NCBI RefSeq assembly: GCF_028641065.1
Contig: NC_073410.1
Location: forward strand, 558,001-622,000
Length of the DNA: 64,000 nt
Direction: 5' to 3'
DNA from: Leucoraja erinacea
Taxonomy: Eukaryota
Positions within the stretch are counted from its first letter, which is position 1. Each line of letters starts with the position of its first letter. Under the pieces are notes generated by a model that saw only the letters and a list, made by a program, of their open reading frames with translations, had not been told where the DNA came from and did not search any database. Made by a program: the position numbers and the translations under genes. Below are positions 5,994 through 58,590 of this stretch, piece by piece.

Positions 5994-6311
5994 ACATAAA
6001 AATGCTGGAGAAACTCAGCGGGTGCAGCAGCAACTATGGAGCGAAGGAAAAGGGCAACGTTTCGGGCCGAAACCCTTCTTCAGACGGGTTTCCCTCTAAA
6101 CGCTCCCCTGCCCACATATCTATGCAAATATCTTTTAAACACCGTTGTTGTTGACATCGAAGATAGACACAAAAAGTTGGTTTGAAGAAGGGTCTCGACC
6201 CGAAACTTCACCCATTCCTTCTCTCCAGATACGCTGCCAGTCCCGCTGAGTTACTCCAGCAGTTTGTGTCCATCTTCTGTTTAAACCAGCATCGGCAGTT
6301 CCTTCCTACAC
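5994..6311. mobile_element. Two Penelope-derived short elements in opposite orientation (subfamily B on minus ~5994-6085; subfamily A on plus ~6180-6311)
   Basis: aatgctggagaaactcagcgggtgcagcag...aacgtttcgggccgaaacccttcttcag, then tttgaagaagggtctcgacccgaaacttcaccc...cagttccttcctacac. Confidence 0.75.
6056..6083 (-). ncRNA. Minimal type-I hammerhead ribozyme motif (intact core, subfamily B)
   Basis: CUGAAGA-A-GGGU(UUCG)GCCC-GAAA-CGUU. All core nucleotides are present, with a stem II hairpin and a palindromic ACGU stem III. Confidence 0.65.
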
Positions 6312-6907
6312 GTGTACATATCTAAGCGAGACACTGTTTATTGGCCTTGATGTAACTGCGCTTCATTTGTCCATGTTAATCATACACGCTGTTTGTTGGC
6401 GCTGCTCGGCGCGGCGACACGGGAGCAGGCGGCGAGACTCCCTGGGACCATCATTGTACATTAACACATTAATTCAGCCCAGTCTAATTACACTTCTTTC
6501 ACATACTGTTAATTTTAAGTGGAACCAGGCAGAGAGGAATTATATTGTGAACATGTGCAGCGGGACCGGCTTTAAATCCCAACGTGAGAGGAGAGGGGGA
6601 AGGACAGGGGCTGCGTTTATTCCTGGTTCCGGCGCCGCCCGCTTGAGTGAGACACACCCCCCCCCCCCCCCCCCCCCCCCCCTTTCCCCTATCTCTCCCC
6701 CCCCTCTCTCCCCCACCCCCCCCATCTACGCCCCCCCCCCATCCTCCTCCCCCCATCTACCCCCCCCCCCCCTCTCTACACCCCCCCTCTCCCCAACCCT
6801 CTCTCCTATCTCTCCCAACCCCCTCTCCCCTCTCCATCTCCATCTCCCCTCCACTCCCTCACTCGCATTGCCTGCATTTGGCCCACTGCTGTCCAAATCC
6901 TTCCTAT

Positions 6908-7035
6908 CAGTCTGAAAAAAGAATCTTCACCCGAAACGTCACTCATTCCTTCTCTCCAGAGCCGGCCATGCCTGTCCCGCTGAGTTACTCCAGCAATTTG
7001 TGTCAAACTTTGGTATAGAGTAGCATCTGCAGTTA
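6908..7035 (+). mobile_element. Penelope-derived short element with degenerate hammerhead
   Basis: agtctgaaaaaagaatcttcacccgaaacgtcac...gctgagttactccagc...gcatctgcag. Confidence 0.65.
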
Positions 7036-8912
7036 TTTTTCTTTACATATTGTGTAGCTGGGACGTTGGGCGATGTGGGCGTTGGGCCGAAGGTCCTGTT
7101 TCCACGCTGTAGGGCTCTATATATATATACAATATGGTTAATGCGGAATTGTACACGTGTGGAGCATGCAGGCACACATGGGGTTGGTCAAACACACGCC
7201 TTAACCATATGGGATTGGGGTACAAATTCGCATTAAAGCCATCATGGAGACAATCTTCTTCAACATCAGGATGACAACGTTATAGAGAGACTTTGTTTTC
7301 CAGTTTGAATTCAGTTCGCACGTTTTCTCTATGGCAGTTCCTTCGCTTCACCAGCGGAGTGGGATAAGTTGGTCTCCAGACTGCAGCAGAGTCGGGCGCA
7401 GTTGGATATCTGGAACCACTGCCGTTAATTGCACGCTGCCATTAACACCAGCCATTCTTCCTGCTTTAACACCAGGTTTGTTTTTCATGGAGCCTCACTC
7501 AATTGAATGGCATGCAATGCTTTCACTCTAGTATGAAGCTGGCCCAGTCACAATGGGCCGAACGGCCTGTTATCATGTTGTACGTCTCAATCTGCGGAGT
7601 GTGTGACTTCCAATGAAAAACGTGTTGTGAGTGGAGTACAAGTCCCATCCAGATGTGTAACACAGTTTAGTGCAAGAATTAATTAGCATCGATGAATTAT
7701 TCCCTGACCGCGATGACTAAAAGCACATGTCCAGTTCTGGCAACGTAACGGCAACAGTGGTGGGAAACACGAACTAACACGAGGAATACTCAGCGGGCCA
7801 GGCAGCATCCATGGAGAGGAACAGGACCACAATCATTCTGATCAACATGAGCTGTGCTTCTCTCTGCACAGTTGGGGCAGGTGAATCTAAACATATAAAT
7901 GACACTTACACAGGTACACGGATTGGAAAGGTTTAAAGGGATTTGGGCCAAAGATGGACTAATGAGACTGGCTTAGATGGGGCATATTGGTCGATATACG
8001 TAAGAGGGGCCGAACCTCCTGTCCCCCTGCTATCTCTCTCTCTCTCTGCGATGTTGCCAGAACGGTTGCGTTTCTAACGCCAATAGTTTGCTGCACATTT
8101 CTCATTGGTTTCTGGATATATTTGCTGGTGTTATGACGGTGGCCTCCTGTCCTGTCTCTAGTGTTGCAACGATTCTGCATCGATTAACCAACACCTCTTC
8201 AAAATGAGTTTAAAGTCAAGGTATCCCGCAATGGGAGTGAGGTGCAGCACTGACACATGCTGTGGGGATGATGTATTGAGGTGAGACAGACATTCTAACT
8301 ACACGGCTTTCCCTGGTACACGGACATCCATCTGAGCTTGCCTGTGGTTTGTACCATGTTACCTAAAGTACTGATTAAGTTAAATATGGTTTTACTTTCC
8401 GGTAAAGACCTCAGTCATCTTTGATCTTGCTACACAATCCTAAAGTCTGAGAAAGCTGCTTCAACCTGATCAAAGATGTCTCTGATCTGCCTCAGAAGCT
8501 GAGAGTGTGGTGTTAGGTGAAGCTGGGCTGGAGCTGAGACCTGCAGTTAAGTACAGAGTGAACTTGACACAACTAATAGAGGATGAAAGCTGTATGGGTG
8601 CTATGACAAGAATGCATATGTGTGCAATGAAGAAATCGTGGCGACTGGGAACTCGATTCAGCCGATCCTGGCCGACGCTGCCACCAACTCCGAGACTTGT
8701 GGTTGGAAGACTACACTTGTTAACTTCCAAGCCACAAGGTGATGCGTGGCTCCTTTCTTCCTCCTGAAATGATCTCTCGCTACCATTAAACATAACTCTG
8801 CTCAGGGCAACCCGAGAGGCGGTATCGGGTTCACAAAGACAGCATTCGGGTAATTAAATTGCAGAACTCGAGCCTGATTGGAGTGGTGGCATTTCCCCGC
8901 AACATTCACCAT

Positions 8913-9068
8913 TCAAGATTCAAGAGAGTTTATTGTCATGTGTCCCTGATAGGACAATTAAATTCTTGCTTTGCTTCAGCACACAGAACATAGAAGGCAT
9001 GAATACAGAACAGATCAGCGTGTCCATATACCATTGTATAAATATATACACACATGAATAAATAAACT
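8913..9068 (-). mobile_element. LINE 3' UTR fragment (Rex1/Babar-like)
   Basis: Minus strand ends ...acatgacaataaactctcttgaatcttg; resembles the 3' ends attached to Rex1-like coding fragments elsewhere in the window. Confidence 0.45.
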
Positions 9069-9081
9069 AGCGTCACGGAGT

Positions 9082-9830
9082 CATATAGCGTGGGAAGAGA
9101 CCATTCGGCCCAACTTTCCTACGCCGACTAATATGTCCCACCTGCCTGCGTTTGGCTCACATCCCTCTAAATCTGTCCTATCCATGTACCTGTCTAAATG
9201 TTTCTTAAACGTTGTGAAAGTCCATACCTCAACTACCTCCTCTGGCAGCTCGTTCCATATAACTACTAGCTCATGCCCTCGGCGTCCTGGTAACATCCTC
9301 GTACATCCCCTCCGCACCTTTTCCAGTTTACTACAGGCCTCTCCGATGCCTTGTACATTGTAACGTGCTCTGCCAACGTCTACACTCACCACTCTGACTG
9401 ATGAAGTCCAATGTGCCGAAAGCCTTGTTTACCCCCCTGTATATCTGCCTGCATCCATGTCCCTGTACTCTAGCCATTGTGTGTAGGCCATGCCCATGCT
9501 GGACTTCCCAACAGGCAGCACCTCGCCCTTGTTTAAGAAGGAACTGCAGATGCTGGGAAATCGAAGGTAGACAAAAATGCTGGAGAAACTCAGCGGGTGA
9601 GGCAGCATCTATGGAGCGAAGGAAATAGGCAACGGCCTCATACTTCGCTGTATTCAACTCAATTAACCATTTTTCAGCCCAGCTGGCCAACTGATCAATT
9701 GTTGACAATCATCTTCGCTATCTACAATGCCATCTACTTTAGTGTAATCTGTAAACTGGCTATTCATGCCTTGTATGTTCTCATCCAAATCATTAATGTA
9801 GATGACGAACAGTGATCCACCATGAATATA
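9082..9830 (-). mobile_element. CR1-clade LINE fragments (degenerate RT C-terminus and 3' tail), interrupted by a Penelope-derived unit at ~9530-9634
   Basis: Minus-strand ORFs contain VIWNELPEEVVE...FKKHLDRYMD, KLEKVRRGCTRMLPG and IDQLASWAEKWLIELNTAKYE, typical CR1 ORF2 motifs. Confidence 0.8.
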
Positions 9831-10324
9831 AAAGGCTCAGGAGACGAGACCAGCCGTGCTCGAAGTTCGATTGCCTGAATGGCCTCCTACTGCTGTGTGT
9901 GTAAGGCCGCAGATAGAGAGTCTCATTCGAGCCAGGAGAGGGACATAGAGAGCACAGTGTGGGTAGAGGACGGACCCGTCCCAGCTAATGTACCGCATTA
10001 ACCCAGCACTGGTTAGTTGGAGGCCCAGTCCCGCCACAGATGTTCCCAGTAACTCGGCCCCTTTATTGATTGTACGTTGCCAGTGTAGGCCAGGCACCCT
10101 TGCACTCACTTCACTAAACCCATTCCCCACTGAACACTGCCCGGTCCATCACAGCATCTACCGGGGTCGCCACATCAACAAATCCTGGCCTCATTCTCAT
10201 TTCATAGGTACAGGAGTCTGAAAACAGTAACCTCGTCCTGGTCCCGGTTCAGGAACAGCCTCTTCCCAACAATCATCCACTATTGAACACCACGACCTCC
10301 AAATAAACTCTGATTCATATTCCT

Positions 10325-10475
10325 ATATATCCAGCATCTGCAGTTCTTTCCTCCAAATCATATATATAGTGTGTGCGGAACTGCAGCAGCTGCTTTGCAC
10401 CGAAGATAGACACAAAATGCTGAAGTAATTCCACGCGACAGGCAGCATCTCTGGAGAAAAGGAATAGCGGTGATG
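10325..10475. mobile_element. Penelope-derived short element fragments in both orientations
   Basis: ccagcatctgcagttc and ggaactgcag...gatagacacaaaatgctgaagtaat...ggcagcatctctggagaaaaggaatag. Confidence 0.6.
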
Positions 10476-10784
10476 TCTGTGGTGTTCAGCCAGGCCAATG
10501 ATGTTCCGCTGGGCGGGTGGGGTGACCGTGTTGCGCGGATGACCAGGGTGGTAATGCCGCGGGCCGGCGCTCAGGCACCGCATGGATAGCACAGTGCGTG
10601 TGTTAGTCCCACAGTCCCATCCCATCACTCACACATCCCCGCGACACTAGGAGAGAGGAGTGTCGCCGTTTACTTGGTTAGAAATTCAGCAACAGCGGTT
10701 AATTTTAACCAGAGAGAAGTTTTACCGTTTTTTAAAGTTGAGCTTTGACGCGAGGAATCTTTGACAGATTCCTCGCGTTTAGAA

Positions 10785-11196
10785 GATTTAGAAGATGGAG
10801 CGGGGATCTTATAGAAACGTACAAAATTCTTAAGGCGTTGGACAGGCTAGATGCAGGAAGATTGCTCCCGATGTTGGGGAAGTCCAGAACAAGGGGTCAC
10901 AGCTTAAGGATAAGGGGGAAATCTTTTAGGACCGAGATGAGAAAAACATTTTTCACACAGGGAGTGGTGAATCTGTGGAATTCTCTGCCACAGAAGGTAG
11001 TTGAGGCCACAGTTAATTGGCTATATTTAAGAGGGAGTTAGATGTGGCCCTTGTGGCTAAAGGGATCAGGGGGTATGGAGAGAAGGCAGGTACAGGATAC
11101 TGAGTTGGATGATCAGCCATGATCATATTGAATGGCGAATGGTGCAGGCTCGAAGGGCCGAATGGCCTACTCCTGCACCTATTTTCTATGTTTCTA
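10785..11196 (+). mobile_element. CR1-clade LINE (HER1-like) 3' end, young copy
   Basis: GDLIETYKILKALDRLDAGRLLPMLGKSRTRGHSLRIRGKSFRTEMRKTFFTQGVVNLWNSLPQKVVEA plus the tail gaagggccgaatggcctactcctgcacctattttctatgtttcta. Near-identical to 48236-48413. Confidence 0.9.
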
Positions 11197-11218
11197 AAAG
11201 AAAGACGATTGTTTTTAT

Positions 11219-11349
11219 GTTTAAGAAGGAACTGCAGATGCTGGGAAATCGAAGGTAGACAAAAATGCTGGAGAAACTCAGCGGGTGCAGCAGCATCTAT
11301 GGAGCGAAGGAAATAGGCAACGTTTCGGGCCGAAACCCTTCTTCAGACT
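11219..11349 (-). mobile_element. 131-bp hammerhead-bearing Penelope-derived element flanked by a perfect 15-bp target-site duplication
   Basis: TSD GACGATTGTTTTTAT at 11204-11218 and 11350-11364. The minus-strand element begins agtCTGAAGAagggtttcggcccGAAACGTT and ends cagttccttcttaaac. Confidence 0.85.
11319..11346 (-). ncRNA. Minimal type-I hammerhead ribozyme motif (intact core, subfamily B)
   Basis: CUGAAGA-A-GGGU(UUCG)GCCC-GAAA-CGUU. Confidence 0.65.
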
Positions 11350-11769
11350 GACGATTGTTTTTATATTTAGTAAACGGTCAGGTTGCAAGCAGAGTCCTGG
11401 CTGTTACAGACAGTCTGTACTGTCCGAGTCCACGCTCGCTTCATCACCCTGAATCAAAGAGGTGAACATGGCTATGTTATAATTAGACTGAAGTCTAATA
11501 CGGAGTCTGAAAGAAGGTTATAAAATGCTTTCCCCTTTACCACTGTGACAGGCGCTTCTGTAATTGTGGGACAGAAAGGTCAGAACAAATAGGTGGGCTT
11601 GGTTGTGGCCGTGTTACGGCGCGGACCCTTCTCATCCGCGCCCACAATGGGATCCTGAATAAACAAGTATTAAATCTTCTCTTCACAATGAACTGCCCGG
11701 CTGTGAAAAGGAGTTGGGTTTGGGGAGTAGGTTGTGTGAGCGGCAGAGAGAGAGAGAGAGAGACAGTAA

Positions 11770-12100
11770 ATGAGCGGAGTTTGAACGTCTTTTGTTGGGG
11801 GCTTGTTTAATGGGGCGGAAAATGCAATTGCACTTTCCTCGCTGCGAAAGGCGCGTTGAGGGCATCATAAATTAGCTGCCGTGAGATACTGTCTTTGTGT
11901 AGCCGGCGCGGGCCGAGTCCAGCCGCGTCTAAACTGCAGGCGCCCGGAGATAATCACGGGCCGTTTCACTGACTGGGGACAAGCCCCCGGTGATGGCGTC
12001 CCGGCACCGTCCACAAGGGGCAAGTAGCCAGCCAGCCGGCCGAGCGGCCTCCGCTTCTCTGCCTCGTCTCTCTGCAGTTTGGCACATGGCTCCTGTCACA
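11770..12100. promoter_or_regulatory. Candidate BMP/Wnt-responsive enhancer (CpG-rich, non-repetitive)
   Basis: GCCGGCGC 11902-11909, GTCT 11927-11930, GGCGCC 11939-11944, CTTTGT 11893-11898, CATAAATTAG ~11866-11875. Confidence 0.4.
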
Positions 12101-12369
12101 GTGGCTCCACATTCAGCCCAATCCCTCGTTCCCACTCGGTGTCGAGGCTCACAGCTGCTCGGCGGCTCCAGACTCCCGCGGCAGGTGAACCCGCGCCGCA
12201 GCCACTCGCACTCAAAGCCTTTCACACACTCACTCGGAATGTGACTTTGTTCAGAATGTGACAATGGGCGTCCGCACTCAATATGCAGATTCGCCGCATT
12301 CCGCCTTCGCCTCGCCACAGGAACCCGCACGGGCCCGGCCTCAGCGGTCAAAGGTGTGGAGCCAAGCCG

Positions 12370-13985
12370 GAGCTGCCCCCCTCACCCTGCCCCTCACCTC
12401 ACCCCTCACCTCACCCTGCCCCACTCACCCCCCCACCCCTCACCCCCCCCTCGCCCCTCACCCTGCCCCCACTCCCCCCTCACCCCTCCCCCCCCTGCCC
12501 CCCCTCACCCCACTCAACCCCCCCCCCCCCGCCCCCACACCTGCCCCTGCCCCCTCACCCCACACCCCTCCCCCTGCCCCCACACCCCTCACCCTGCCCC
12601 CACTCTGCCCCCTCACCCCTCACCCTGCCCCCTCACCCCTCACCCTGCCCCACCCTGCCCCCCACTGCCCCCTCACCCCTCCCCTGCCCCCTCACCCCCC
12701 CTCACCCCCTCACCCTGCCCCCTCTGCCCCCCCTGCCCCCACACCCTGCCCCCTCGCCCCCTCACCCTGCCCCCCCCCTCACCCCCCCCTCCCCCCCCCC
12801 CCCACCTCACCCCCCCCCCCCCCCCCCCACCCCCCCCCCCCCCCACCCCCTCCCCCTACCCCTCACCCTCCCCCTCCCCCTCACCCTCCCCCTCACCCCC
12901 CCCCTGCCCCTCACCCCCCCCCCCCCCCCCTCACCCTCACCCTCACCCTAGCCCTCCCCCTCACCCTCACCCTCACCCTCACCCTAACCCTAACCCTAAC
13001 CCTAACCCTAACCCTAACCCTCCCCCTCCCCCTCACCCTCCCCCTCACCCCTGCCCCCCCCCTAAACACCCTGCCCCCCTCACCCCTCACCCTGGCCCCC
13101 TCACCCCTCACCCCTCCCCCCCCACCCCCACCCCTGCACCCCTCACCCTGCCCCCTCACACCCCACCCCCTGCCCCCTCACCCCCCCCCACCCTGCCCCC
13201 ACCTCACCCTCACCCTGCCCCCCCTCACCCTGCCCCCTCACCCTCACCTCAACACCCTCACCCTGCCCCCCCTCACCCCTCCACCCCCTCACCCTCACCC
13301 CCCCACCCTGCCCCCTGCCCCCTCACCCTCCCCCCCCTGCCCCCTCCCCTCCCCTCCCCTGCCCCCTCACCCTCACACCTGCCCCCTCACCCTGCCCCCT
13401 CACACCCTCACCCTGCCCCCCTCACCCTGCCCTCTCACCCCTCACCCTGCCCCCTCCCCACCCCCCTCACCATGCCCCTCTCACCCCTCACCCTGCCCCC
13501 CACACCCTGCCCTCTCACCCCCCTCACCCTGGGCCCCCTCACCCTGGCCCCTCACCCTCACCCCTCACCCCAACCCCCCCCCCCCCTCACCCTGCCCCCT
13601 CCCCCTGCCCCCCCACCCCACACCCCTCACCCTGCCCCCCCCCCCTCCAAACCCCTCACCCCCTGCCCCCCCCACCCTGCCCCCTCCCCCTCCCCACACA
13701 CCCCTCACCCTGCCCCTCCCCCTCACCCTGTACCCTCCCCCCACACCCTCCCCCTCACCCCACCCCCTGCCCCTCACCCTGCCCTCTCACCCCTCACCCT
13801 GCCCCCTCACCCTGCCCCCTCACCCCTCCCCCTGCCCCCTCACCCTGCCCCCTCACCCCACACCCCCTGCCCCCTCACCCCTGCCCCCTCACCCTGCCCT
13901 CTCACCCCTCACCCTGCCCCCTCACCCTGCCCCCTCACCCCTCCCCCTGCCCCCTCACCCCTCACCCCTCACCCTGCCCACTCCC
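12370..13985 (+). repeat. 1.6-kb C-rich satellite of CCCTCA/CCCTGC-type units with embedded (CCCTAA)6 at 12982-13017
   Basis: Read directly; the G-rich strand is the minus strand. Confidence 0.95.
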
Positions 13986-14029
13986 CCTTTACGTTTACAA
14001 ACCTTCCTGCTTCTAGAGGGATCTTACCA

Positions 14030-14480: not shown

Positions 14481-14499
14481 GGGAGATCAGATAGAAGCC

Positions 14500-14725
14500 T
14501 CCCCTTACTCTCTCTCCCCCTCACTCCCTCTACTCCCTCACCCTCTACTCCCTCACTCTCTCTACCCCCTGATCCTCTACTCCCTCACTCTCTCACTCCC
14601 TCACCCTCTACTCCCTCACTCCCTCTACCCCTCACCCTCTCTACCCCTCACTCTCTCTACCCCTCGCCCTCTCTACCCCTCACCATCTACCCCTCGCCCT
14701 CTCTACCCCTCACCATCTACCTCTC
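14500..14725 (+). repeat. CT-rich minisatellite (ccctctact/ccctcac units)
   Basis: Read directly. Confidence 0.85.
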
Positions 14726-16800: not shown

Positions 16801-17089
16801 TGCCGGTCGGAGAGCGGCAACATGTGGCAGTGCAGGCCATTTGGTGATGTTGGGGCCGCAGCCCATGATTAGCTAGGGTTAGTTCGACCATGCCAGAACC
16901 AGCGCTATGGCAACAGCAGCTGCCCTACAAAGAGCTGCAAATGCCCGGTGGGAGGCGGAGAGACAAAGTCGTATTTTATTTTCATGCAAATAGCTGATGG
17001 AAATAGTCAGGGATGAGTTAACAGATCTATAAAATATCTTAGAATTGTTACGTCAGGCTCGAGAGGGAATATCGTTGCCAAAATATAAG

Positions 17090-17797
17090 CAACTGTAGAC
17101 CGGTTTAAAACGAAGGAAGACACAGAATGCTGGAGGAACTCAGCGGGCCAGGCAGCATCTGTGGAGAGAAGGAATGGGTGATGTTTCAGGTCGAGACCCT
17201 TCTTCAGACTGATGTCAATGGAGGGGGCGGGACAGAGATAGAATGTAGTCGGAGACAGTAAGAACTGTGATGGGATGCTGCCTGACCCGCTGAGTTACTC
17301 CAGCACTCTGTGAAACGTCACCTATCCATGTTCTCCACAGATGCTGCCTGACCCGCTGAGTTACTCCAGCACTCTGTGACACGTCACCTAACCATGTTCT
17401 CCACAGATGCTGCCTGTCCCACTGAGTTATTCCAGCACTCTGTGAAACGTCACCTATCCATGTTAGAGTTTGATAGAGCTCTAGGGGTTAGTGGAATCAA
17501 GGGATATGGGGAGAAGGTAGGCACGGATTATTGATTGGGAACGATCAGCCATGATCACAATGAATGGCGGTGCTAGCTCGAAGGGCCGAATGGCCTCCTC
17601 CTGCACCTATTTTCTATGTTTCCACATATGCTGCCTGATCCGCTGAGTTACTCCAGCACTCTGTGAAACGTCACCTATCCATGTTCTCCACAGATGCTGC
17701 CTGACCCGCTGAGTTACTCCAGCACTCTGTGAAACGTCACCTATCCATGTTCTCCACAGATGCTGCCCGACCCGCTGAGTTACTCCAGCACTGTGTC
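17090..17797. mobile_element. Composite: Penelope-derived unit (minus, ~17090-17260), 66-bp tandem arrays (17274-17462, 17627-17797) and a nested CR1 3' end (17463-17620, plus)
   Basis: Repeated unit gatgctgcctgacccgctgagttactccagcactctgtgaaacgtcacctatccatgttctccaca; CR1 tail gaagggccgaatggcctcctcctgcacctattttctatgtt. Confidence 0.85.
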
Positions 17798-23639: not shown

Positions 23640-23734
23640 AGATAGATACAAGTGCTGGAGTAACTCACGGGATCAGGCAGCATCTCTGGAGAAAAGGAAT
23701 CGGTGACGTTTCAGGTCGAGACCCTTCTTCAGAC
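23640..23734 (-). mobile_element. Penelope-derived unit with hammerhead motif at 23705-23732 (core intact, G-U at the base of stem II)
   Basis: Minus: CTGAAGAagggtctcgacctGAAACGTCaccgattccttttctccagagatgctgcc. Confidence 0.75.
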
Positions 23735-26159: not shown

Positions 26160-26255
26160 CTGGAGTCTGAAGAAGGGTCCCAACCCGAAACGTCAACTAT
26201 CGACATGCTCCAGAGATGCTGCTGATACGATGAGTTACTCCAACATCGTGTGTCT
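26160..26255 (+). mobile_element. Penelope-derived unit with intact hammerhead core at 26167-26194
   Basis: agtCTGAAGAagggt(ccca)acccGAAACGTC...gatgctgctg...gagttactccaac. Confidence 0.7.
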
Positions 26256-26811
26256 TAGAGTCAAATACAACACTGAAACAGGGACTTTGGCCCAACTTGC
26301 CTGTCTGCTCCACTAGACTCACCTGCCTGCGTTTGGCCCATATCACTCTAAACCTTTCCAATCCATGTACCTGTCCAAATGTGTTTTATATGTTGAACCT
26401 ACTGAATTACTCCAGCACTTTGTGTCTTTTTTTTGTAAACATGCATCTGCAGTTCCTTGTTTCGCCTTTTTCTCTACTTGAAAGCTTTTGTTACTCAAAC
26501 CTACTGAATAGTAAGTCTTGGACAGATTTAATGCAAATGTATACAAAAACGTTATTCCTATTTTCTGGAGTGAATGCCCAGGATCACTATATCCTGGAGA
26601 TTTCTGTTCTCAGAGGAAGGGATATGCAATAGAACTTCCCACACCTGGATCTGGAGGACACGTGACATCCACAACAAATCTAGGAAAGCTCAAATAAAGG
26701 GTTTCCCAAAGAGCAGGTGTCACCAGAACTTGCCGTGTGGACGTCTAGCAATGATGAGGAGACCAAGATCAACCGCCAATGAACAGTGGGAGTGAGCTGC
26801 ACCAACTCCAT

Positions 26812-34439: not shown

Positions 34440-34692
34440 GGGAGCTGCAGATGCTGGTTTACAAGAAAAGCACAAAGTGCTGGAGTAACTCAGCGGGTCA
34501 GGCAGCATCTGTGGAGAACATGGATAGGTGACGTTTCACAGAGTGCTGGAGTAGCTCAGTGGGTCAGGCAGCATCTGTGGAGAACATGGATAGGTGACGT
34601 TTCACAAAGTGCTGGAGTAACTCAGTGGGTCAAGCAGCATCTGTGGAGAACATGGATAGGTGACGTTTTAGGTTGGGGCCCTTCTTCAGACC
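34440..34692 (-). mobile_element. Penelope-derived element with degenerate hammerhead and 3 x 66-bp tandem units
   Basis: gtgctggagtaactcagcgggtcaggcagcatctgtggagaacatggataggtgacgtttcaca repeated, ending cccttcttcagacc. Confidence 0.85.
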
Positions 34693-36921: not shown

Positions 36922-37093
36922 GTACAGGAACAGGAACTGCAGATGGTTTAAACAAAAGTTAGATACAAAATGCTGAAGTAACTCAGTGGGTCTGAAGGTT
37001 CTGAAGAAGGGTCTCGAGCCGAAACGTCACCCATTCCTTCTCTCCAGAGATGCTGCCTGTCCCGCTGAGTCACTCCGCTTTTTGTGTCTATCC
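36922..37093. mobile_element. Palindromic Penelope-derived element with hammerhead core at 37001-37028 (plus)
   Basis: CTGAAGAagggtctcgagccGAAACGTC. Flanks tcacgatcctgt (36910-36921) and tcaggatcctgt (37094-37105) look like a TSD. Confidence 0.75.
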
Positions 37094-37483
37094 TCAGGAT
37101 CCTGTACAGGGTGACTAAGATATCTAGCACCATTCCACAGGCAGGCAAGGGGAGTGGTCAAACATCAAAAAATGCTGCCTGTCTGTGCATTAGTTTATCA
37201 CCTTCCCCACTCCAGGCTGAAGCGCATGTGCAGAGCATGCAGTTTGTTTCATCCGCAGTGCTAATACTCAGTATTTATTCCCTCGTCAAAGTGCATCTGG
37301 ATTTACAATTGTGACTAGTGGGCAATGTGCTGGCCATCCCGATCAATGCTTGGCATCCTGCATCCCATTCCATCGCCAATCATGCCTTTCATGTGAACAG
37401 GGCGGGACCGGTTTAATGCACTTGCTTAAATCCTGCGTTATTGCTCCCTGAGAACCCAACATAAAACAACATGCTTTGTACTT

Positions 37484-37794
37484 AGTCTGTGAAGTTCAGA
37501 TTGAAGAAGGGTCCCGACCCAAAACATCACCTATCCATGTTCTCCACAGATGCTGCCTGACCCGCTGAGTTACTCCAGCACTCTGTGAAACGTCACCTAT
37601 CCATGTTCTCCGCAGAGGCTGCCTGACCCGCTGAGTTACTCCAGCACTCTGTGAAACGTCACCTATCCATGTTCTCCACAGATGCTGCCTGACCCGCTGA
37701 GTTACTCCAGCACTCTGTGAAACGTCACCTATCCATGTTCTCCACAGATGCTGCCTGACCAGCTGAGTTACTCCAGCACTCTGTGTCTTTCTTT
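37484..37794 (+). mobile_element. Penelope-derived element: degenerate hammerhead + ~4 x 66-bp units, flanked by a 13-bp TSD
   Basis: ATGCTTTGTACTT at 37471-37483 and 37795-37807; units start at 37549, 37615, 37681 and 37747. Confidence 0.85.
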
Positions 37795-41210: not shown

Positions 41211-42074
41211 GTGATGCAGGGTTCCCGGGCAACCCATGACCCCTGGTGAAGCGGAGAGACACAGCAGCCGTTCCCTCGGTCCCAAAGGTCATCAACATTG
41301 AATTGCTAAAGACAGTCCTCACCACGGGGCCAACCACACTACTGTCTACACCGTGTGATTATGGGCTTGTCAGAAACAAGTAAATGACCAAATATAAAAA
41401 CAGCGGTTGGCAATAGCTACTGTTTCCCTGTTGTTCGAGATGTAAATACATCTTTCTGCAGTAGGAACAAACTCTTAGATCAGTTCCAGATTAATCTTAA
41501 ACTGTTTCTTGAGAAACGGGATTGTTTAAAACAGGACAAATTACTCCCATTCGAGTCCTTTCAGCAAATATATTGTGCACCCAAACAGGATGAGTTGTTT
41601 GCACTATAGACTGCGGGGATATGAGTGGGAGCTTTCTCCTGTGAAGTTCATGGCGAGTGTCCCTGTGTGGGGGTGAGGATATAAGTCACTCACACGTGTG
41701 TGAAAACCAAAACACATGCTGCTACTTGGACACACGGGGAACTGCAGATGCTGGTTTGCAAAACAAGTAACAAAGTGCTGGAGTAACTCGGCATGTCAGG
41801 CAGCATCTGTGGAGAACACGGACAGGTGATGCTTCTTCAGAATGATTGCAGTACGGGGGAGATAGTGGGGGGGGTGGAGGTGGAGTCCGGGGCAAAGCCT
41901 GCTAGTGATCTGTGTGGAGATGGGTGGGCGTGTTTGCCGGACGGGTGGGCGTGGGCCAGAGAAGGGAAGGGTCAAGTTTGGCTTTATTACTGTCACGTGT
42001 ACAAGGGTACAGTAAAAGCTTTGTTTTTCATGCTATAAAAACAGATCAGATATACCACACATTGATACAATCAA

Positions 42075-42250
42075 AGATAGACACAAAAAGCTGGAGCAAC
42101 TCAGCAGGACAGGCAGCATCCCTGGAGAGAAGGAAGGGTGACGTTTCGTGTCGAGACTCTTAAGAAGGGCCTCCAGTGATGCTGCCTGTCCCTCTGAGTT
42201 ACTCCAACTTTTAGTGTCCATCTTCGGTTTAAACCAGCACCTTCCTACAT
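42075..42250. mobile_element. Palindromic Penelope-derived element nested in a Rex1-like 3' UTR
   Basis: gatagacacaaaaagctggagcaactcag... / ...gatgctgcctgtccctctgagttactccaacttttagtgtccatc. Confidence 0.7.
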
Positions 42251-43919: not shown

Positions 43920-44510
43920 GGAGCTGAAGAAAGGTCTCAACCCGAAACGTCACTTCTCCATGTTCTCCACAGATGCTGCCTGACCCGCTGAGTTATGGTG
44001 CAGCAGCATCTATGGAGCTAAGGAAATAGGCAACGTTTCGGGCCGAAACCCTTCTGGAAATAGGCAACGTTTCGGGCCGAAACCCGGAAGGGTTTCGGCC
44101 CGAAACGTTGCCTATTTCCTTAGCTCCATAGATGCTGCCTGACCCTCTGAGTTACTCCAGCACTCTGTGAAACGTCACCTATCCATGTTCTCCACAGATG
44201 CTGCCTGACCCGCTGAGTTACTCCAGCACTCTGTGAAACGTCACCTATCCATGTTCTCCACAGATGCTGCCTGACCCACTGAGTTACTCCAGCACTCTGT
44301 GAAACGTCACCTATCCATGTTCTCCACAGATGCTGCCTGACCCGCTGAGTTACTCCAGCATCTTGTGGACAATGTGGCTTGTTATGTTGGCCCATCAGTC
44401 TCTCTGAGATAGACAGAAGTGCTGGAGAAACTCAGCGGGTGCAGCAGCATCTATGGAGCGAAGGAAGGAAATTGGCAACGTTTCGGGCCGAAACCCTTCT
44501 TCAGACTAGG
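43920..44510. mobile_element. Composite of subfamily A and B hammerhead elements: palindromic B core (~44000-44138), 66-bp array (44131-44360), intact minus-strand hammerhead (44477-44504)
   Basis: gcagcatctatggagctaaggaaataggcaacgtttcgggccgaaaccc...gggtttcggcccgaaacgttgcctatttccttagctccatagatgctgc; the same architecture recurs at 58245-58590. Confidence 0.85.
44477..44504 (-). ncRNA. Minimal type-I hammerhead ribozyme motif (intact core, subfamily B)
   Basis: CUGAAGA-A-GGGU(UUCG)GCCC-GAAA-CGUU. Confidence 0.65.
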
Positions 44511-45399: not shown

Positions 45400-45750
45400 T
45401 GTGTAGGGGAAGGAACTCGGAGATACTGGTTTAAACCGAAGATAGAGACAAAAAGCTGGAGTAACTCAGCGGGTCAGGCAGCATCTCTGGAGGGAAGAAA
45501 TAGGTGATTTTCCGGGTCGAGACCCTTCTTGGATCTGAATTGTCACCTATCCATGTTCTCCACAGATGCTGCCTGACCCGCGGACTCCAGCACTCTGTGA
45601 AACGTCACCTATCCATGTTCTCCACAGATGCTGCCTGACCCGCGGAGTTACTCCAGCACTCTGTGAAACGTCACCTATCCATGTTCTCCACAGATGCTGC
45701 CTGACCCGCTGAGTTACTCCACATATGCTGCTGGACCCGCTGAGTTACTC
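45400..45750. mobile_element. Penelope-derived unit (minus) followed by an inverted 66-bp tandem array
   Basis: gtgtaggggaaggaact...gggtcgagacccttctt, then gtcacctatccatgttctccacagatgctgcctgaccc x3. Confidence 0.8.
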
Positions 45751-51734: not shown

Positions 51735-51797
51735 ATCACTCACTCACTCACTCACTCACTCACTCACTCACTCACTCACTCACACACTCACTCACAC
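51735..51797 (+). repeat. (ACTC)n microsatellite
   Basis: Read directly. Confidence 0.95.
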
Positions 51798-52084
51798 ATA
51801 CATCCATGTACAAACTCCTCTGGAAACACACAAATCCCAGGGAAGGACACATTTCCACAGTGCGTCACAGAGCGGTGTGGGCAGGTATAGTAAGTCCAGG
51901 GACTGTTGCAGTATTGTCATGGTGTAAGCACAGTTGTAGCCCTGTAATGCTGCTGCAGTATTGCAGGTAACATAGGCAGTGGTGCAGTGGTGTGGGTGGT
52001 AGAAACCGTGGCAATGTGTAGGCACTGCTGCAGTGGTGCAGACACTGTTACAATGGTGTAAACCCTGTTGCATCAACGTTGAGC

Positions 52085-52500
52085 CTGTTGCAATGGTGCA
52101 GGGATGTTGCAATGGTATAAAGTATGTTGCAATAGTGCAGGGATTGTTCCAATAGTATAAAGTATGTTGCAATGGTGCAGGGATTGTTGCAATAGTATAG
52201 TATGTTGCAATGATGCAGGGATTGTTCCAATGGTGCAGGGATTGTTGCAATGGTGCAGGGATTGTTCCAATGGTATAGTATGTTGCAATGGTGCAGGGAT
52301 TGTTCCAATAGTATAGTATGTTGCAATGGTGCAGGGATTGTTGCAATAGTATAGTATGTTGCAATGGTGCAGGGATTGTTGCAATAGTATAGTATGTTGC
52401 AATGGTGCAGGGATTGTTGCAATAGTATAGTATGTTGCAATGGTGCAGGGATTGTTGCAATGGTATAAAGTATGTTGCAATGGTGCAGGGATTGTAGCAA
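52085..52500 (+). repeat. 38-bp minisatellite built from 20- and 18-bp GTTGCAAT subunits
   Basis: gttgcaatggtgcagggatt-gttgcaatagtatagtat, period 38 (52320, 52358, 52396). Confidence 0.9.
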
Positions 52501-53017
52501 TAGTGCGGCGACGTTACAGTAGTATTGTCCCAGATTCCAGCCACCCTGGAGTAAAATGATTCCCTTTCATCGGTTAAATGGCTTGTAAAGCTGCAGCAAG
52601 TAAGAATTTCATTGTTCCGCTGCTGAGAACAGAACAATTAAATACTCCACTCTCAAAGAAACAGTTAGAACAACGGTAAATAAAAACAGAACTCTGGTGG
52701 AATCCTTCCAAGGCTATCAATGACATTTGAATTAAGGAGTCTGGATAAGGAGATTGTTGTTAATTCAATGTAGTTTAGTTTAGTTTATTGTCACAGGTAC
52801 CGAGGTGTAAGTGAAAAGCTTTTGTTGCGTGCTAACCAGTCAGCGGAAAGACAATACATGATTAAAATCAAGCCCTCCATAGTGTACAGATACAGGATAA
52901 AGGGAATAATGTTCAGTGCAAGATAAAATCCAGTGAAGTTCGATTAAAGATAGTTGTAGGGTGAGGTAGATAGTAGCTCTAAGCTGCTATATCTTGTTTC
53001 CCTCTCCCCACACTGTC

Positions 53018-53105
53018 GGTCTGAAAAAGGGTCTCAACCTGAAACGTCACCCATTCCTTGTCTGCTGCCGGACCCACTGAGTTACTCCAGCATATTGTAT
53101 CTATG
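53018..53105 (+). mobile_element. Penelope-derived unit with mutated hammerhead (G8->A)
   Basis: ggtCTGAAAAagggtctcaacctGAAACGTCaccc. Confidence 0.7.
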
Positions 53106-53654
53106 GGATAGTTGAGTTGCTTGTTAGCGGTGGGGAAAGGCAAGGCTGTGTGGGGAGAGAGCAAGTGTGAGGAAGGACTAGCCTTTCACACAGAGGCCGG
53201 CTGATGAGCCTTGACCTGTACAATGCCCCAGGACAGGGACCGCACTTAGTGATAGCCAAGTGAGATCACAGCCACACAGAGAAGGGCCGAGAATTGTGTC
53301 TGCAACTTTACTACCAGAATTAAATAATTTTTAATATGTTTAAGTTGTGAATGATGCTAAAACTGACCAGAGTTAGTACAGATGCCATGGGCTACTCAAC
53401 TCTTACATCTGTTCCAGCCAATTAAGTCACGTCAATAGTCTTTGGGTACATTACAAACATTTAATACGATCCAGATCGCTGGCTGTTTAGTTATTGGTTA
53501 ATTTAATTTATTTTATCTTTTCATCAAGACCCAGTCTGCAGCAGGAAAATAAATGCTGACCAACATGCTGGGATGTTTAGGGGTTGGGGGGGGGGGGGGG
53601 GAGGTCAGTATCGTTCACATCTGAAACTGTGGACAAAGCCCATGCCTTTGAAAG

Positions 53655-54120
53655 NNNNNNNNNNNNNNNNNNNNNNNNNNNNNNNNNNNNNNNNNNNNNN
53701 NNNNNNNNNNNNNNNNNNNNNNNNNNNNNNNNNNNNNNNNNNNNNNNNNNNNNNNNNNNNNNNNNNNNNNNNNNNNNNNNNNNNNNNNNNNNNNNNNNNN
53801 NNNNNNNNNNNNNNNNNNNNNNNNNNNNNNNNNNNNNNNNNNNNNNNNNNNNNNNNNNNNNNNNNNNNNNNNNNNNNGGGGGATGTGTATGGGGGTGGGG
53901 ATGTGTGGTGTGTGTGTGATGTGGGTGGTGATGTGTGGTGGTGGGGTGGGGGTGTGCGGGGGGTGTGGGGATGTGTGTGGGGATGTGGGGGGATGTGGAT
54001 GGGGGTGTGTGTGGGGTGTGTGTGTGTGGGGGGGGGATGTGTGGGGGTGGGTGGGGATGTGTGTGGGGGTGTGTGTGGGGGTGTGTGTGGGGATGTGTGT
54101 GGGGATGTGTGTGGGGTGAC
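53655..54120. repeat. Assembly gap (53655-53877) and adjacent GT/G-rich simple repeat
   Basis: N run, then ggggatgtgt-type units. Confidence 0.95.
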
Positions 54121-54759
54121 TGGGGTGGAACAATGCCCGGGTATCGAGTGTCAGGACACCACCATTCAAAATGGTTTACGGGACATATTAGATAATGAGC
54201 TTCAGTAGGGCAACAGTTAATGCTGGACCTGGCCATTGGATAGAGCCCCTTCAAAGTGATCTCTCCTCATCTCTACTCTAAGTGGCAGCCCTTCTACCCT
54301 GGACTTTGACCCACGTCTCCAAGTCTCCAGTTTGGGGGAAGGTTGTTCCCTGCATCTACAATACCAATGTCTCTCAGTATCCTGTGCGCTGCATGGAAAC
54401 AGGCTTTCAGCCCAACTCATCCATGCCGAACAGGACACTCTAGGCTAGCCCTAATTAGCCTGCATTTGGCCCATATCCTTCTATTCCTGCCCTATCCGTG
54501 TACCTGCTCAAGTGTCTTTCAGATTTGTGCCTCAGCCACTTCCTCTGTCAGCTCGTTCCATGTGCCACTAACTGGGATAATTTGAATTTTGTTTGTAAAT
54601 TATAAGGACATACAAATACAATAGCGTACGAAAAAAAATAAATAGCTTTCTCATATTTTGGAGGCCAATTAGAGTACATAGGAAGTTCTGGAGTGCTTTG
54701 GAAATTTGGTTTTCACTCTAACAGTGTTAGTGCCACCTGCACAGATGCTGACACAATGT

Positions 54760-54990
54760 GTGAATTAAATTATTGGCCATTGGGTAAACCTCTCTGCTCT
54801 TCTTCAGTTTAAAACCACGGGATGATTTACATCCACCTGAGAGAGAAAGCAAGAGGTAAAGACAGCACCTGTGATCATGCCACACGCGCTCTGTCAGTGC
54901 AGACTGGATCCCCCCCAGAGTGTAGAACTGAAGTGTCTGGTGAGGGGTTTGATCCCTGTGTGAATGAGACCTTGGTTCCTGAGTCACCTC
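54760..54990 (-). mobile_element. Ancient Deu-domain SINE (SacSINE1/AmnSINE1-like) remnant
   Basis: Minus strand: caggtgctgtcttt...ctctcaggtggatgtaaatcatcccgtgg...tgaagaagagcagagag...tggccaata. Matches the Deu-domain consensus as I recall it (CTCTCAGGTGGAYGTAAAAGATCCCATGG...GAAGAAGAGCAGGGGAG...TGGCCAATA). Confidence 0.65.
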
Positions 54991-55026
54991 CTCAGGAGAG
55001 CTCATCAAAACTTTCATTGCCAGTTG

Positions 55027-55240
55027 GTAGACACAAAAAGCTAGAGTAACTCAGCGAGTCAGACAACATCTCTGGTGGAAAGGAATGGGTGACGTTTTGG
55101 GTCTTCTTCAGAAGAAGGGTCTCGACCTGAAACGTCACCTATTCCTTTTCTCCAGAGGTGGTGCCTGACCCGCTGAGTTCCTCCAGCTTTTTGTGTCTAT
55201 CTTTGGTTTAAACCAGCAACTGCAGTTCCTTCCTACACAT
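55027..55240. mobile_element. Palindromic Penelope-derived element
   Basis: Arms are centred on tcttcttcagaagaag (~55102-55117); possible TSD ttcattgccagttg / ttaattcccagttg. Confidence 0.8.
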
Positions 55241-56614
55241 CTTAATTCCCAGTTGTCTGAGTTCCCTTTAATGAATGTGCTTTGTCTCCATCAACATTAC
55301 CAGGAGCTCAGCGGCAGGCATCAGTGCAAGCCAACCACTGGTAGAATGCCGCATCTACTGCAGAACAAGTGGGGACATTTGATTTCTACCACAAATCCTG
55401 TTTACTGAAAATATCCAACGTATTTGCTGTGACTTGCATCATCTGGCCAGCTGTGAAATATCATTACAGGCTGTTTTAGATCCATAAATGGATACCATTC
55501 AGAATTTATGCCAGCAGCAGTATGAGATCAGAACAAACAAATGTCACAAGATTTCAAAGCCTGAATGGACACCTTTCATGTTCCACCTCACCATCATGCT
55601 CAGAACACGCGTGTGTGTGTGTGTTCACAGACATCAATTATAGACACTTTAATCCACAAACATAAATAGCAACAGGAAATTGACAGTAAATACCCAGGAG
55701 GTCTGCGGCATCTGTGGAGTAAATAGATTTAGTAATGGTGACCTTTCATCTACAAATTGTATTCCTCGCTCATGCAGGTAGTTTGCTAGGTTGTGCCTTC
55801 TTCTCCTCCACCTGGACAGGTAGGTTGCCAGGGTTCGATGCCACTCTAATGCTGGAGCCTGGTGGACAATGAATGTTTCACCTGGTCATGGACCCACAGA
55901 AACTGATGTATGAATAATGAGCAAGATTATAGCTGGCCCTGTGAGATATGGAGGATACCACACAAGTCCCAGGAATTAGTCAGAAGAGTTGTATAAAGGG
56001 CAGTCATTTGTTCCGCCCAATCCCTGACTCATATCCACACTGGTGTTTGCCACATGACCGGTTAAACAATCCTCTCCACTTGTAGGAACATTGGGACAGA
56101 GAGATTTACACAATGGTTCAGAGGACAACGGGCCAATTGTCAGCAAATGGGACTAGCCCAGAATGCCAACTTGTTTGGCATAGACATGATGGGCCAAAGG
56201 GCCTGTTTCCATGCTGTACAGCTCTATGAGTCTCTCACTCTAACTTCCAACGTCAGGAGAAAGGGCTTTACCAAGATGAAGCTCACAGTGAGGAGAGATC
56301 ACAGCAGATTGTCGATGTGTCTGAGGAATTGGTGCAAAAATTGGAAAGGAGAGTGAGAGAGAGAGAGGTTTAGGCTGATGGGGATTGATGGAGATGGGGC
56401 TGCAATCCCACATCAACCAGTGGACTGACTGGTCCATTTGATGGGATATCAGGGCCTGATCTGAGTTGTGGGCCACATCATTTCCATCTTTCTCATTATT
56501 CACGTTTTAACATTTTCTTGATGTGTTGCCTTACTTCAGATCAGACACTCTCCCATCCATTCCCCTTTCGACTTTTGGCACCAGATGAAGTAAGTCTCCC
56601 CAAGTAACATCCAC

Positions 56615-56828
56615 AGCACATCATTTCCATCACCTCCAACAAATCACATCTTCCCACCTCCATCCTTCCCACATTCTGCAGAGACAACTCTTTAGATCAC
56701 TCATGCCTTCCTGTCCAAATCAACCACTCCTTAGATACTTTCCCCTGCAACTGCAGGAGATGCAACACCTGTCCATATACCTCCTCCCTCACCTCCATCC
56801 AAGGACCCCAGCAGTCCTTCCAGGTGAG
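56615..56828 (+). mobile_element. Penelope-like element coding remnant (Cys knuckle upstream of the GIY-YIG endonuclease)
   Basis: 56737-56826 translates TFPCNCRRCNTCPYTSSLTSIQGPQQSFQV, preceded by degraded HF.HLQ/HIFP/F.RD.SL motifs. This resembles the C-x(3-4)-RC-x-TC linker of Neptune-type PLEs. Confidence 0.7.
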
Positions 56829-56834
56829 CCACAG

Positions 56835-57325
56835 GTGAGTCCACATTTGGAGTATTGAGTTTCGTTTTAGTCACCTTGCTATGGGAAAGATGGCATAAGT
56901 GAAAAGAACGCAGAGACGATTTACAAAGATTCTATAAATCAGTATGATGGCTTCAACTGTTGAGAGAGACTCGGACATTATTTCTTGGAACACATGAGGC
57001 TGAGAGATGATTTTCTCGAGGTGTATACAGTCATGAGTGGAAGATAAGGTGAATGCACATATCAAGAACCAGAGTAAATAGGTTTACGGTGAGATGGGAA
57101 AGATTTAATCGTAGCCTGAGGGGCAATTTCTTCACACAGAGAGTGGTGGGTTTATGGAATGAACTGCAGAAGAGGTACTTGAGGCAGGCATAAAAACAAC
57201 ATTTAAAACACATTTGGACAGGTACATAGATAGGAAAGGTTTAGAGGGATGTTGGCCAAACGCAGGCTAATGGGACAGGCTTAGATGGGGCATCTTGGTC
57301 AGAATGGACAAGTTGGACCGAAGCT
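56835..57325 (+). mobile_element. CR1 LINE 3' portion
   Basis: ccacatttggagtattg...ttcttcacacagagagtggtgggtttatggaatgaactg...tttggacaggtacatagataggaaaggtttagagg. Confidence 0.8.
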
Positions 57326-57904
57326 TTCTGGCATTACTCAATGGGATAGTAATGCTTCTATTAACTAGTCTGATCACAACCATCTATTTGACTAATAGGA
57401 ACTTTAAGACTTTGCTGACTGTGATTGTTACTGCAATTGTATCGTCCTTAAGGCAGCTGTTTTGAAAATAAAACAGGGATTATGTCAGAGTGATCCCACA
57501 TGAACCGCTGACAGGTTTGGCTCAGCTGGAGATTAGTTGGGGAAACACTGCCATCGTGAGTATTGCCAATGTATCTGCCAGCAAGTCAAATGACCACTGC
57601 TTCCATGATCATAACATGTTATAATATCACATACATGTAACTCTCTGCACCACATACAACTCTCAGTAATATACAACGTTATGATACATACAGATAGAGT
57701 AGACAGCCAGAACTTGTTTCTCCCAGGGTGGACTGTGCAAGGCTAGAGGGCATAGCTTTAAGATACGAGGGGAAAAGATTAAAGGTGTGCAGGACAAGTT
57801 TTTACACAGAGTTTGGTGGGAGTTGAGAACGAAGGGAGCAGGTACGAGAGTGATGTTTAAGAGGCACATGGATATGTAAGGGAGGGAGGGATATGGATCC
57901 TGTG

Positions 57905-58215
57905 TTTATCGGGATGCATCACAACATGGTTTGGGAACAGCTCCATTCAAGACCGCATGAAATTGTAGAGAATTCCGAACCGAGCCCAGACAATCACACA
58001 AACTATCCTCCCTCCCATTGACTCCATCTACACCACGCTGCTTCAGCAGGGTCTCCAGACTCCATTTACACCACGCTGCTTCAGCAGGGTCTCCAGTATA
58101 ATCAAGGGTGAGTCAATCCCTCTTCTCCCCTCTGCCATCAGGCAAGAGGTACAGAAGTTTGAAAAAGCACAACTCCAGATTCAGAGACAGTTTCTTCCCA
58201 GTTGTTATCAGGCCG
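57905..58215 (+). mobile_element. Rex1/Babar-like RT C-terminal fragment with an internal 38-bp duplication (58020-58095)
   Basis: SLFSPLPSGKRYRSLKKHNSRFRDSFFPVVIR. Confidence 0.8.
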
Positions 58216-58239
58216 GACCTCCTATCTACATCATTGAAG

Positions 58240-58590
58240 ATGGACAAAAATGCTGGAGAAACTCTGAGTTATGGTGCAGCAGCATCTATGGAGCTAAGGA
58301 AATAGGCAACGTTTCGGGCCGAACCTTCTGGAAATAGGCAACGTTTCGGGCCGAAACCCGGAAGGGTTTCGACCCGAAACGTTACCTATTTCCTTAGCTC
58401 CACAGATGCTGCCTGACCCGCTGAGTTACTCCAGCACTCTGTGAAACGTAACCTATCCATGTTCTCCACAGATGCTGCCTGACCCGCTGAGTTACTCCAG
58501 CACTCTGTGCAGCAGTTCTCCACAGATGCTGCCGACCCATGGAGCGAAGGAAATAGGCAACGTTTCGGGCCAAAACCCTTCTTCAGACTG
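58240..58590. mobile_element. Composite subfamily A/B hammerhead element inserted into the Rex1-like copy; intact minus-strand hammerhead at 58559-58586
   Basis: Same architecture as 43990-44200; CTGAAGAagggt(tttg)gcccGAAACGTT. Confidence 0.8.

What the first reader, a model, noticed from the sequence alone, without database searches (positions are those of the whole stretch)
6056..58586. Structure-preserving variation in hammerhead stem II between two subfamilies
Seen: intact cores at 6056-6083, 11319-11346, 44477-44504 and 58559-58586 (all minus; subfamily B: GGGU-UUCG/UUUG-GCCC, cleavage triplet GUU, next base G). Others are at 23705-23732 (-), 26167-26194 (+) and 37001-37028 (+) (subfamily A consensus: GGGU-CUCG/CCCA-ACCC, triplet GUC, next base A). 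The differences between subfamilies fall in the loop or keep pairing (U-A versus U-G in stem II; U-A versus U-G at the first stem I pair; NUH rule kept), while CUGAAGA and GAAAC are invariant. The extra A after A9 is a tolerated insertion known from other natural hammerheads. Inference: selection on RNA structure in the master elements.
Basis: partly seen in the sequence, partly recalled or inferred. Interest (0 to 1): 0.7.

Follow-up and report, generated by a model that had tools for sequence, protein, structure and literature searches.

The report
Penelope hammerhead stumps without true covariation
These motifs are the cut-off ends of an abundant Penelope-type jumping gene carrying a known kind of tiny hammerhead-ribozyme motif; the differences between its subfamilies spare the motif, which likely reflects selection in the few active parent copies, but none is a true two-sided compensating change, so the finding is ordinary.

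Summary
The seven cores exist at the stated places, but two of the three 'A' cores are damaged in stem II. They are stumps of the 3' pseudo-LTR of a Penelope-like retrotransposon (RT + GIY-YIG frame; motif 120 nt after the stop; 16,331 exact B and 12,259 exact A cores genome-wide). Minimal hammerheads in such pLTRs, including the extra base after A9, are published. Six subfamily consensuses, clustered on flanks only, differ at 5 of 32 hammerhead positions, all tolerated, and at 0 of 13 essential positions versus 15 of 51 flank positions (p about 0.02). A copy amplified as cargo of a MITE fixed only pair-breaking changes. That is modest support for selection in master elements. There is no covariation: every change is one-sided or unpaired, and genome-wide double mutants pair at chance rate. 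The same changes also fit a non-hammerhead helix, and B's changes perfect a competing hairpin. Inserted copies decay as if unconstrained (55 of 304 intact). 68 of 75 young copies read through the cut site, so templates were likely uncut. The scan has reported this element before in this and related genomes.

The parts
6056..6083 (-). Minimal hammerhead core, youngest subfamily B1, intact; inside a pLTR stump 5993-6085
11218..11351 (-). Complete solo pLTR stump (B1) with tail, core at 11319-11346 intact; flanked by a 12-bp direct repeat (11352-11363 and 11206-11217), read as a target-site duplication
44477..44504 (-). B1 core, intact; stump 44410-44507
58559..58586 (-). B1 core with a CpG-type loop change, pairing intact; stump 58539-58595 joined to an inverted array
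23705..23732 (-). A-type core, decayed: closing pair of stem II is G-U; stump 23644-23734
26167..26194 (+). Older A-type core, stem II paired, second stem I pair lost; diverged stump 26164-26256
37001..37028 (+). A1 core with G.G mismatch in stem II and one-pair stem I; stump 37000-37094, head-to-head with a short inverted arm
17088..17213 (-).
43997..44367 (.). Fold-back B1 arms meeting head-to-head inside the hammerhead, followed by 66-bp tandem units that lack the 5' half of the core; a near twin lies at 58244-58509
37496..37793 (+). Decayed A3 stump followed by 66-bp tandem units without the 5' half of the core (similar arrays at 17274-17464, 17616-17796, 34471-34668, 45542-45721)
56650..56835 (+). 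Old fragment of the element's coding frame (RT-endonuclease linker region, 50% identity)
   Evidence: tblastn E 1e-11

Best explanation
The motifs are 5'-truncated stumps of the pseudo-LTR of a Penelope-like retrotransposon, and they carry a minimal type I hammerhead motif that is likely kept under weak purifying selection in the active parent elements and would cut only slowly, as a dimer. Shown: the motif lies 120 nt behind an RT + GIY-YIG frame, recurs once per 3.95-kb tandem unit, and differs between six age-graded subfamilies only at tolerated positions, with no two-sided pair change. Inferred: the two motifs of a tandem transcript pair through their 4-nt palindromes to build stem III and occasionally release unit-length RNA. 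Most insertions are copied from uncut RNA, primed at two internal sites about 95 and 130 nt behind C3, and run off an RNA start just ahead of the core. Once inserted, the stumps decay without constraint.
For: Frame and position: (RVT_1 E 1e-6, GIY-YIG E 0.007; 10 of 10 long-frame loci have the B core behind the stop, 120 nt in 8, 114 and 144 nt in the other two). Tandem cores 3948 and 3975 nt apart in L086 and L087. Published features of minimal PLE hammerheads all present. Consensus-level invariance 0 of 13 versus 15 of 51; chance that 5 random transitions are all tolerated is 0.011 (13 of 32 tolerated). MITE-borne passenger fixes 3 of 3 pair-breaking changes and its stem II is predicted unstable, +2.7 versus -4.8 kcal/mol. 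56 of 75 young copies start between -7 and +10, 1 of 75 at the cut site; 3' ends fall at +77..+96 (52) or +124..+132 (23). G12, an essential base at a CpG, is changed in 65 of 253 copies, like flank CpGs (56 of 239).
Against: No covariation at any level. N7, the inserted A, the four bases ahead of stem I and four downstream blocks of 8-16 nt are as invariant as the catalytic bases. Predicted stem II occupancy is 0.05 for B1 and 0.11 for A1 in a 40-mer and at most 0.2 in the whole pLTR; the comparative fold of the six consensuses prefers another helix, and cofolding does not favour the double hammerhead. Stem I is 2 bp. Both Pfam hits are just under the curated cut-offs. One of the passenger's three changes lies at its fold-back junction and may not be a point mutation. 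The six consensuses are related, so the p-values are approximate.
Confidence: 0.7

Rival explanations
1. The hammerhead is a relic. The block is conserved as sequence, likely as the element's internal promoter/transcription start and protein-binding site, and the subfamily changes spare the fold by chance.
For: An 18-nt invariant block covers positions that are free in a hammerhead. Copy starts pile up at its 5' edge. Penelope has an internal promoter with an initiator in the pLTR (PMC2377424 passages). Hammerhead mutants did not affect insertion in vitro for an anole PLE (PMC11167929 passages). The 1.1 change fits an alternative helix as well.
Against: The second invariant block also ends exactly at U16.1; all 5 changes fall at tolerated positions; the passenger control goes the other way; a promoter would not need a paired stem II, the G10.1-C11.1 pair and the stem III palindrome together.
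Confidence: 0.2
2. The variation is not structure-preserving but structure-tuning: the youngest subfamily would mask its hammerhead with a competing hairpin so that uncut RNA is available for internal priming.
For: B1's changes at loop position 1 and at 11.4 perfect an inverted repeat that sequesters G12-A15.1: -5.0 versus -5.1 kcal/mol for stem II, against -1.3 versus -4.8 in A1; predicted stem II share falls from 0.90 in the oldest to 0.05 in the youngest consensus. 9 of 75 copies start at the edge of that repeat.
Against: Post hoc; only two or three changes; the trend is not monotonic (B0 0.47, A1 0.11); templated correction of a near-palindrome during copying would give the same letters without selection (recalled mechanism).
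Confidence: 0.12
3. The dispersed copies are themselves active ribozymes kept by the host and would cut host transcripts.
For: Copies are abundantly present in RNA reads; 24 of 41 B1 copies are intact.
Against: Intact share falls with age (B1 24 of 41, A1 16 of 85, A3 0 of 51, C 1 of 19); essential G12 decays like any CpG; a monomer has no stem III; the nearest same-strand intact cores in the window are 5.3 kb apart.
Confidence: 0.04

Closest known systems
Minimal type I hammerheads (min-HHR) in pLTRs of metazoan Penelope-like elements (Cervera and De la Pena 2014, PMC4209133; parts 1-2 of 4 read)
   Same: Conserved core, extra base between 9 and 10.1, G10.1-C11.1, palindromic 15.2-16.2 with no loop 3, place in the pLTR, mass of solo copies, several consensus families per genome.
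   Different: Stem II is 4 bp (7-8 in Schistosoma) and stem I 2 bp (4-5 typical; 2 in the Drosophila virilis variant). That paper reports families 'full of covariations'; this family shows none within this genome.
Neptune/Nematis-type EN+ Penelope-like elements (Craig et al. 2021, PMC8557442; passages seen)
   Same: RT followed by C-terminal GIY-YIG, a CX4CxxC linker, partial tandems, inverted 5'-truncated copies, 30-40-bp tail.
   Different: Clade not placed on a tree here; an extra upstream frame of 476-602 aa without Pfam match precedes the RT frame in two tandems.
Poseidon element of the green anole, PAc (Frangieh et al. 2024, PMC11167929; passages seen)
   Same: Two internal priming sites giving a tail; uncut RNA as main template; no RNA-seq ends at the cut site.
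   Different: There shown in vitro; here inferred from copy ends. Different clade; there the frame starts inside the hammerhead.
Non-LTR retrozymes (bioRxiv 10.64898/2026.07.22.740005; part 1 of 5 and passages seen)
   Same: PLE-derived, non-coding, tandem 66-bp units occur.
   Different: The tandem units here lack the 5' half of the core, so they do not meet the definition of a hammerhead in every unit.

Membership tests
min-HHR of metazoan PLEs | Conserved catalytic boxes and NUH triplet | tested here: met
   0 of 13 essential positions vary in six consensuses; H17 is C or U
min-HHR of metazoan PLEs | Unpaired base between A9 and G10.1; G10.1-C11.1 pair | tested here: met
   Invariant in all six consensuses; feature listed in PMC4209133
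min-HHR of metazoan PLEs | Palindromic 15.1-16.1 without loop 3 (dimer-only stem III) | tested here: met
   Sequence
min-HHR of metazoan PLEs | Helix I able to close the core | tested here: inconclusive
   2 bp (possible 2 more after a 2x2 loop, read by eye); predicted pairing share at most 0.05; a 2-bp helix I is published for D. virilis
min-HHR of metazoan PLEs | Located in the pLTR of a PLE | tested here: met
min-HHR of metazoan PLEs | Compensatory covariation between consensus families | tested here: inconclusive
   None in this genome, but only 5 positions vary and only one lies in stem II, so power is low
min-HHR of metazoan PLEs | Self-cleavage as a dimer | not testable with these tools
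   Needs an in vitro assay
EN+ Penelope-like element (Neptune/Nematis type) | RT with C-terminal GIY-YIG in one frame | tested here: met
   811-aa frame in L081: PF00078 E 1e-6, PF01541 E 0.007, both slightly under curated cut-offs
EN+ Penelope-like element (Neptune/Nematis type) | CX2-5CxxC zinc-finger linker | tested here: met
   Read in the translation; definition from PMC8557442
EN+ Penelope-like element (Neptune/Nematis type) | Partial tandems, inverted truncated copies, 30-40-bp tail | tested here: met
EN+ Penelope-like element (Neptune/Nematis type) | RT phylogeny places it in the clade | not tested
   No reference RT set fetched
Non-LTR retrozyme | Tandem units each with a whole hammerhead | tested here: not met
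   66-bp units in the window start at G12

The most novel reading that the evidence does not exclude
The age series of subfamilies records a ribozyme being tuned down: the youngest, most copied subfamily has gained a hairpin that masks the catalytic core, acting as a switch that keeps the 5' hammerhead off while the RNA is used uncut for internal priming, and that also seeds the element's fold-back insertions. The MITE-borne copy is a natural no-selection control.
Probability: 0.12. Interest if true: 0.55.

Novelty: new member of a known kind. Interest (0 to 1): 0.22.

Why it matters
Whether Penelope hammerheads do anything for the element is an open question in the papers read (PMC8557442, PMC11167929). 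This family offers a dated series of natural variants, a passenger copy freed from selection and tens of thousands of insertion ends, so it is handy material for a cleavage assay. It does not reveal a new ribozyme or a new element, and the claimed covariation is absent.

Tried and rejected
Rfam scan: no hammerhead hit; miRNA hits are fold-back junctions and simple repeats. Search for a distinct U7 family: 1,206 matches, the first 100 are scattered variants of A and B. The frequent stem II double mutant first looked like a master subfamily with a broken stem; 29 of 30 loci are cargo of a MITE, so that reading was dropped. Splice-acceptor idea for the AG ahead of stem I: rejected, sequences ahead of the short copies are unrelated to each other. 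RNA reads: no RNA holder listed on record; in three raw RNA runs no pile-up of read ends at the cut site, but 80-96% of reads come from dispersed copies and these libraries do not capture cleavage ends, so this is uninformative. Related organisms: contigs of three coded organisms hold the motif with only the H17 change listed; none laid for a fourth; too close to add covariation. Lower decay at catalytic A's (60 of 1273) than at flank A's (143 of 1561) is not selection on copies, since free A's of the motif are as low (26 of 507). One search had a column error and was replaced. No host gene identified from six long frames. Lunse et al. (PMC5785218) is not held; only its title was seen. R-scape is not available.
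Full report
Observation. The seven cores are at the stated coordinates. Aligned from position 2.2 to 1.2, 27 of 30 cells of the six proposed pairs are standard pairs, three pairs vary on one side only and none on both; the covariation score is below the shuffled mean. Two of the three A copies are damaged in stem II. The window holds 67 fragments of the family, of which 21 span the core and 5 are intact. The exact B core occurs 16,331 times and the exact A core 12,259 times in the 2.19-Gb genome, with 0 for reversed controls. 692 fragments in 1.5 Mb sampled at 150 fixed-step places extrapolate to about a million fragments.

What it is. Some B copies continue upstream into a coding frame. Ten loci chosen for long open frames all end in the same C-terminus followed by the B core; the 811-aa frame of L081 matches RVT_1 (E 1e-6) and GIY-YIG (E 0.007), both just under Pfam's cut-offs, with a CX4CxxC linker between them, the mark of Neptune/Nematis-type elements in PMC8557442 (passages). 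Two loci are tandems with cores 3948 and 3975 nt apart, and L083 is an inverted pair. The motif is therefore the hammerhead of a Penelope pseudo-LTR. Cervera and De la Pena (PMC4209133, parts 1-2 of 4 read) describe exactly this kind: minimal core, extra base after A9, palindromic stem III usable only in a dimer, low activity in vitro, and a 2-bp helix I in D. virilis. I did not open that paper's supplementary alignments, which may include this lineage. Searches for Penelope + hammerhead + shark and + subfamilies + covariation listed no paper on this family; a 2026 preprint included one cartilaginous fish in a retrozyme survey (passages). Earlier notes of the scan call the genome a skate; I did not test that.

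Subfamilies. Of 759 hits, 304 span the core and 80 nt of flank (455 shorter hits were dropped). Clustering on flank columns only, at K=8 with the B cluster split in two and three gap-ridden clusters (43 copies) set aside, gave six consensuses on 261 copies, with copy identity from 96% (B1) to 81% (C). Flank-defined groups predict the core letters, so the differences belong to master elements. In the 32 hammerhead positions five vary: two loop bases, 11.4, H17 and 1.1. All are tolerated. 0 of 13 essential positions vary, against 15 of 51 or 24 of 69 flank positions (Fisher p 0.02 and 0.007). 13 of 32 possible transitions are tolerated, so five of five has chance 0.011. These values treat related consensuses as one set of columns and are approximate.

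Covariation. None. The two paired changes are one-sided U-A to U-G. In the 304 copies the six pairs rank 448th to 2950th of 3160 column pairs by corrected mutual information. Genome-wide, copies changed on both sides of pair 10.3-11.3 number 300; 54 of the first 100 pair, against 49 expected from their own margins (counted by eye). For 10.4-11.4, 26 of 63 pair and no variant dominates; the pattern could not include C-G (by eye). For 10.2-11.2, 73 of the first 100 of 539 are one A.A mismatch variant, 14 pair and 13 are other mismatches (by eye).

A natural control. That mismatch variant has 218 exact copies. 29 of the first 30 are the same fold-back stump carried inside a 693-bp element with terminal inverted repeats of at least 30 bp and TTAA-like flanks, a MITE (Kolobok- or piggyBac-like by recall, not tested). 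Amplified without needing Penelope RNA, it fixed three changes in the hammerhead region, all pair-breaking, against five of five tolerated in the masters (p 0.018; 0.048 by hand if the change at the fold-back junction is left out).

Against the structural reading. Free positions (N7, the inserted A, four bases ahead of stem I) and four downstream blocks of 8-16 nt are as invariant as the catalytic bases. The comparative fold of the six consensuses pairs the 5' strand of stem II with the bases after the cut site instead, and the 1.1 change is tolerated in that helix too. B1's loop and 11.4 changes perfect a hairpin over G12-A15.1 that is as stable as stem II (-5.0 versus -5.1 kcal/mol; A1 -1.3 versus -4.8). 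Predicted stem II share in a 40-mer runs 0.90, 0.89, 0.77, 0.11, 0.47, 0.05 from oldest to youngest, and stem I never exceeds 0.05. Cofolded dimers prefer other folds (-21 to -25) to two stems II plus the palindrome duplex (-13, stem I not included). Secondary-structure energies ignore the tertiary core and any bound protein.

Inserted copies are not maintained. Intact cores: B1 24 of 41, B0 9 of 32, A1 16 of 85, A2 3 of 33, A3 0 of 51, C 1 of 19; 55 of all 304. G12 at a CpG is changed in 65 of 253 copies, like flank CpGs (56 of 239).

How copies arise. Among 75 young hits (at least 90% identity, spanning +45 to +75, both arms of inverted pairs counted), 56 start between -7 and +10 of C3, 6 further upstream, 13 further down, and only 1 at the cut site; 68 read through it. 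3' ends fall in two groups, +77 to +96 (52; part of the spread is alignment break-off at a T run) and +124 to +132 (23), none further. This matches the two internal priming sites, the tail and the use of uncut RNA shown in vitro for an anole element (PMC11167929, passages). I infer an RNA start a few bases ahead of C3, consistent with Penelope's internal promoter (PMC2377424, passages; the resemblance to an initiator is recalled); it would also cap stem I at about 3 bp in the 5' copy. Re-ligated circular RNA is an alternative template that I cannot exclude.

Verdict. A real, very common, new member of a known kind. Shown: PLE origin, subfamily series, sparing of the core, absence of covariation, decay of inserted copies. 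Inferred: weak selection in masters, slow dimer cleavage, uncut templates. Eight earlier notes of this scan describe the same class of stumps; they were seen after my own analysis and are not counted as support.

Noticed in passing
L240:1036-1728 region and 28 more of L221-L250 (G000): A 693-bp MITE with 30-bp or longer terminal inverted repeats and TTAA-like flanks carries a fold-back Penelope stump as cargo; at least 218 copies, with a dense cluster at G000:C1:161-169 Mb.
   Followed up: partly
window 17274-17796, 34471-34668, 37522-37785, 44124-44360, 45542-45721, 58398-58509: 66-bp tandem units made of the 3' half of the hammerhead plus flank, 94-97% alike, often attached to fold-back B arms; the composites at 44.0-44.4 kb and 58.2-58.5 kb look like one separately amplified unit.
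   Followed up: partly
L086:4609-6036 and L087:5479-3674: An open frame of 476-602 aa without Pfam match begins just behind the pLTR tail in tandem elements, upstream of and overlapping the RT frame.
   Followed up: no
window 11319-11346 (-), positions +48..+56 and +106..+113 of the pLTR: Two invariant downstream blocks are complementary and form a predicted 8-9-bp helix enclosing the first priming site in most of the six subfamily folds; a candidate RT-binding structure.
   Followed up: partly
L083:2097-7889: Two near-full-length elements in inverted, divergent arrangement with 801- and 802-aa open frames; many copies with identical C-terminal protein suggest very recent activity.
   Followed up: no
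window 12378-13979: 1.6-kb C-rich degenerate heptamer repeat.
   Followed up: no
window 42067-42161 (-): A stump with the same A.A stem II mismatch as the MITE cargo but without its diagnostic flank changes; probably an independent double mutation.
   Followed up: no
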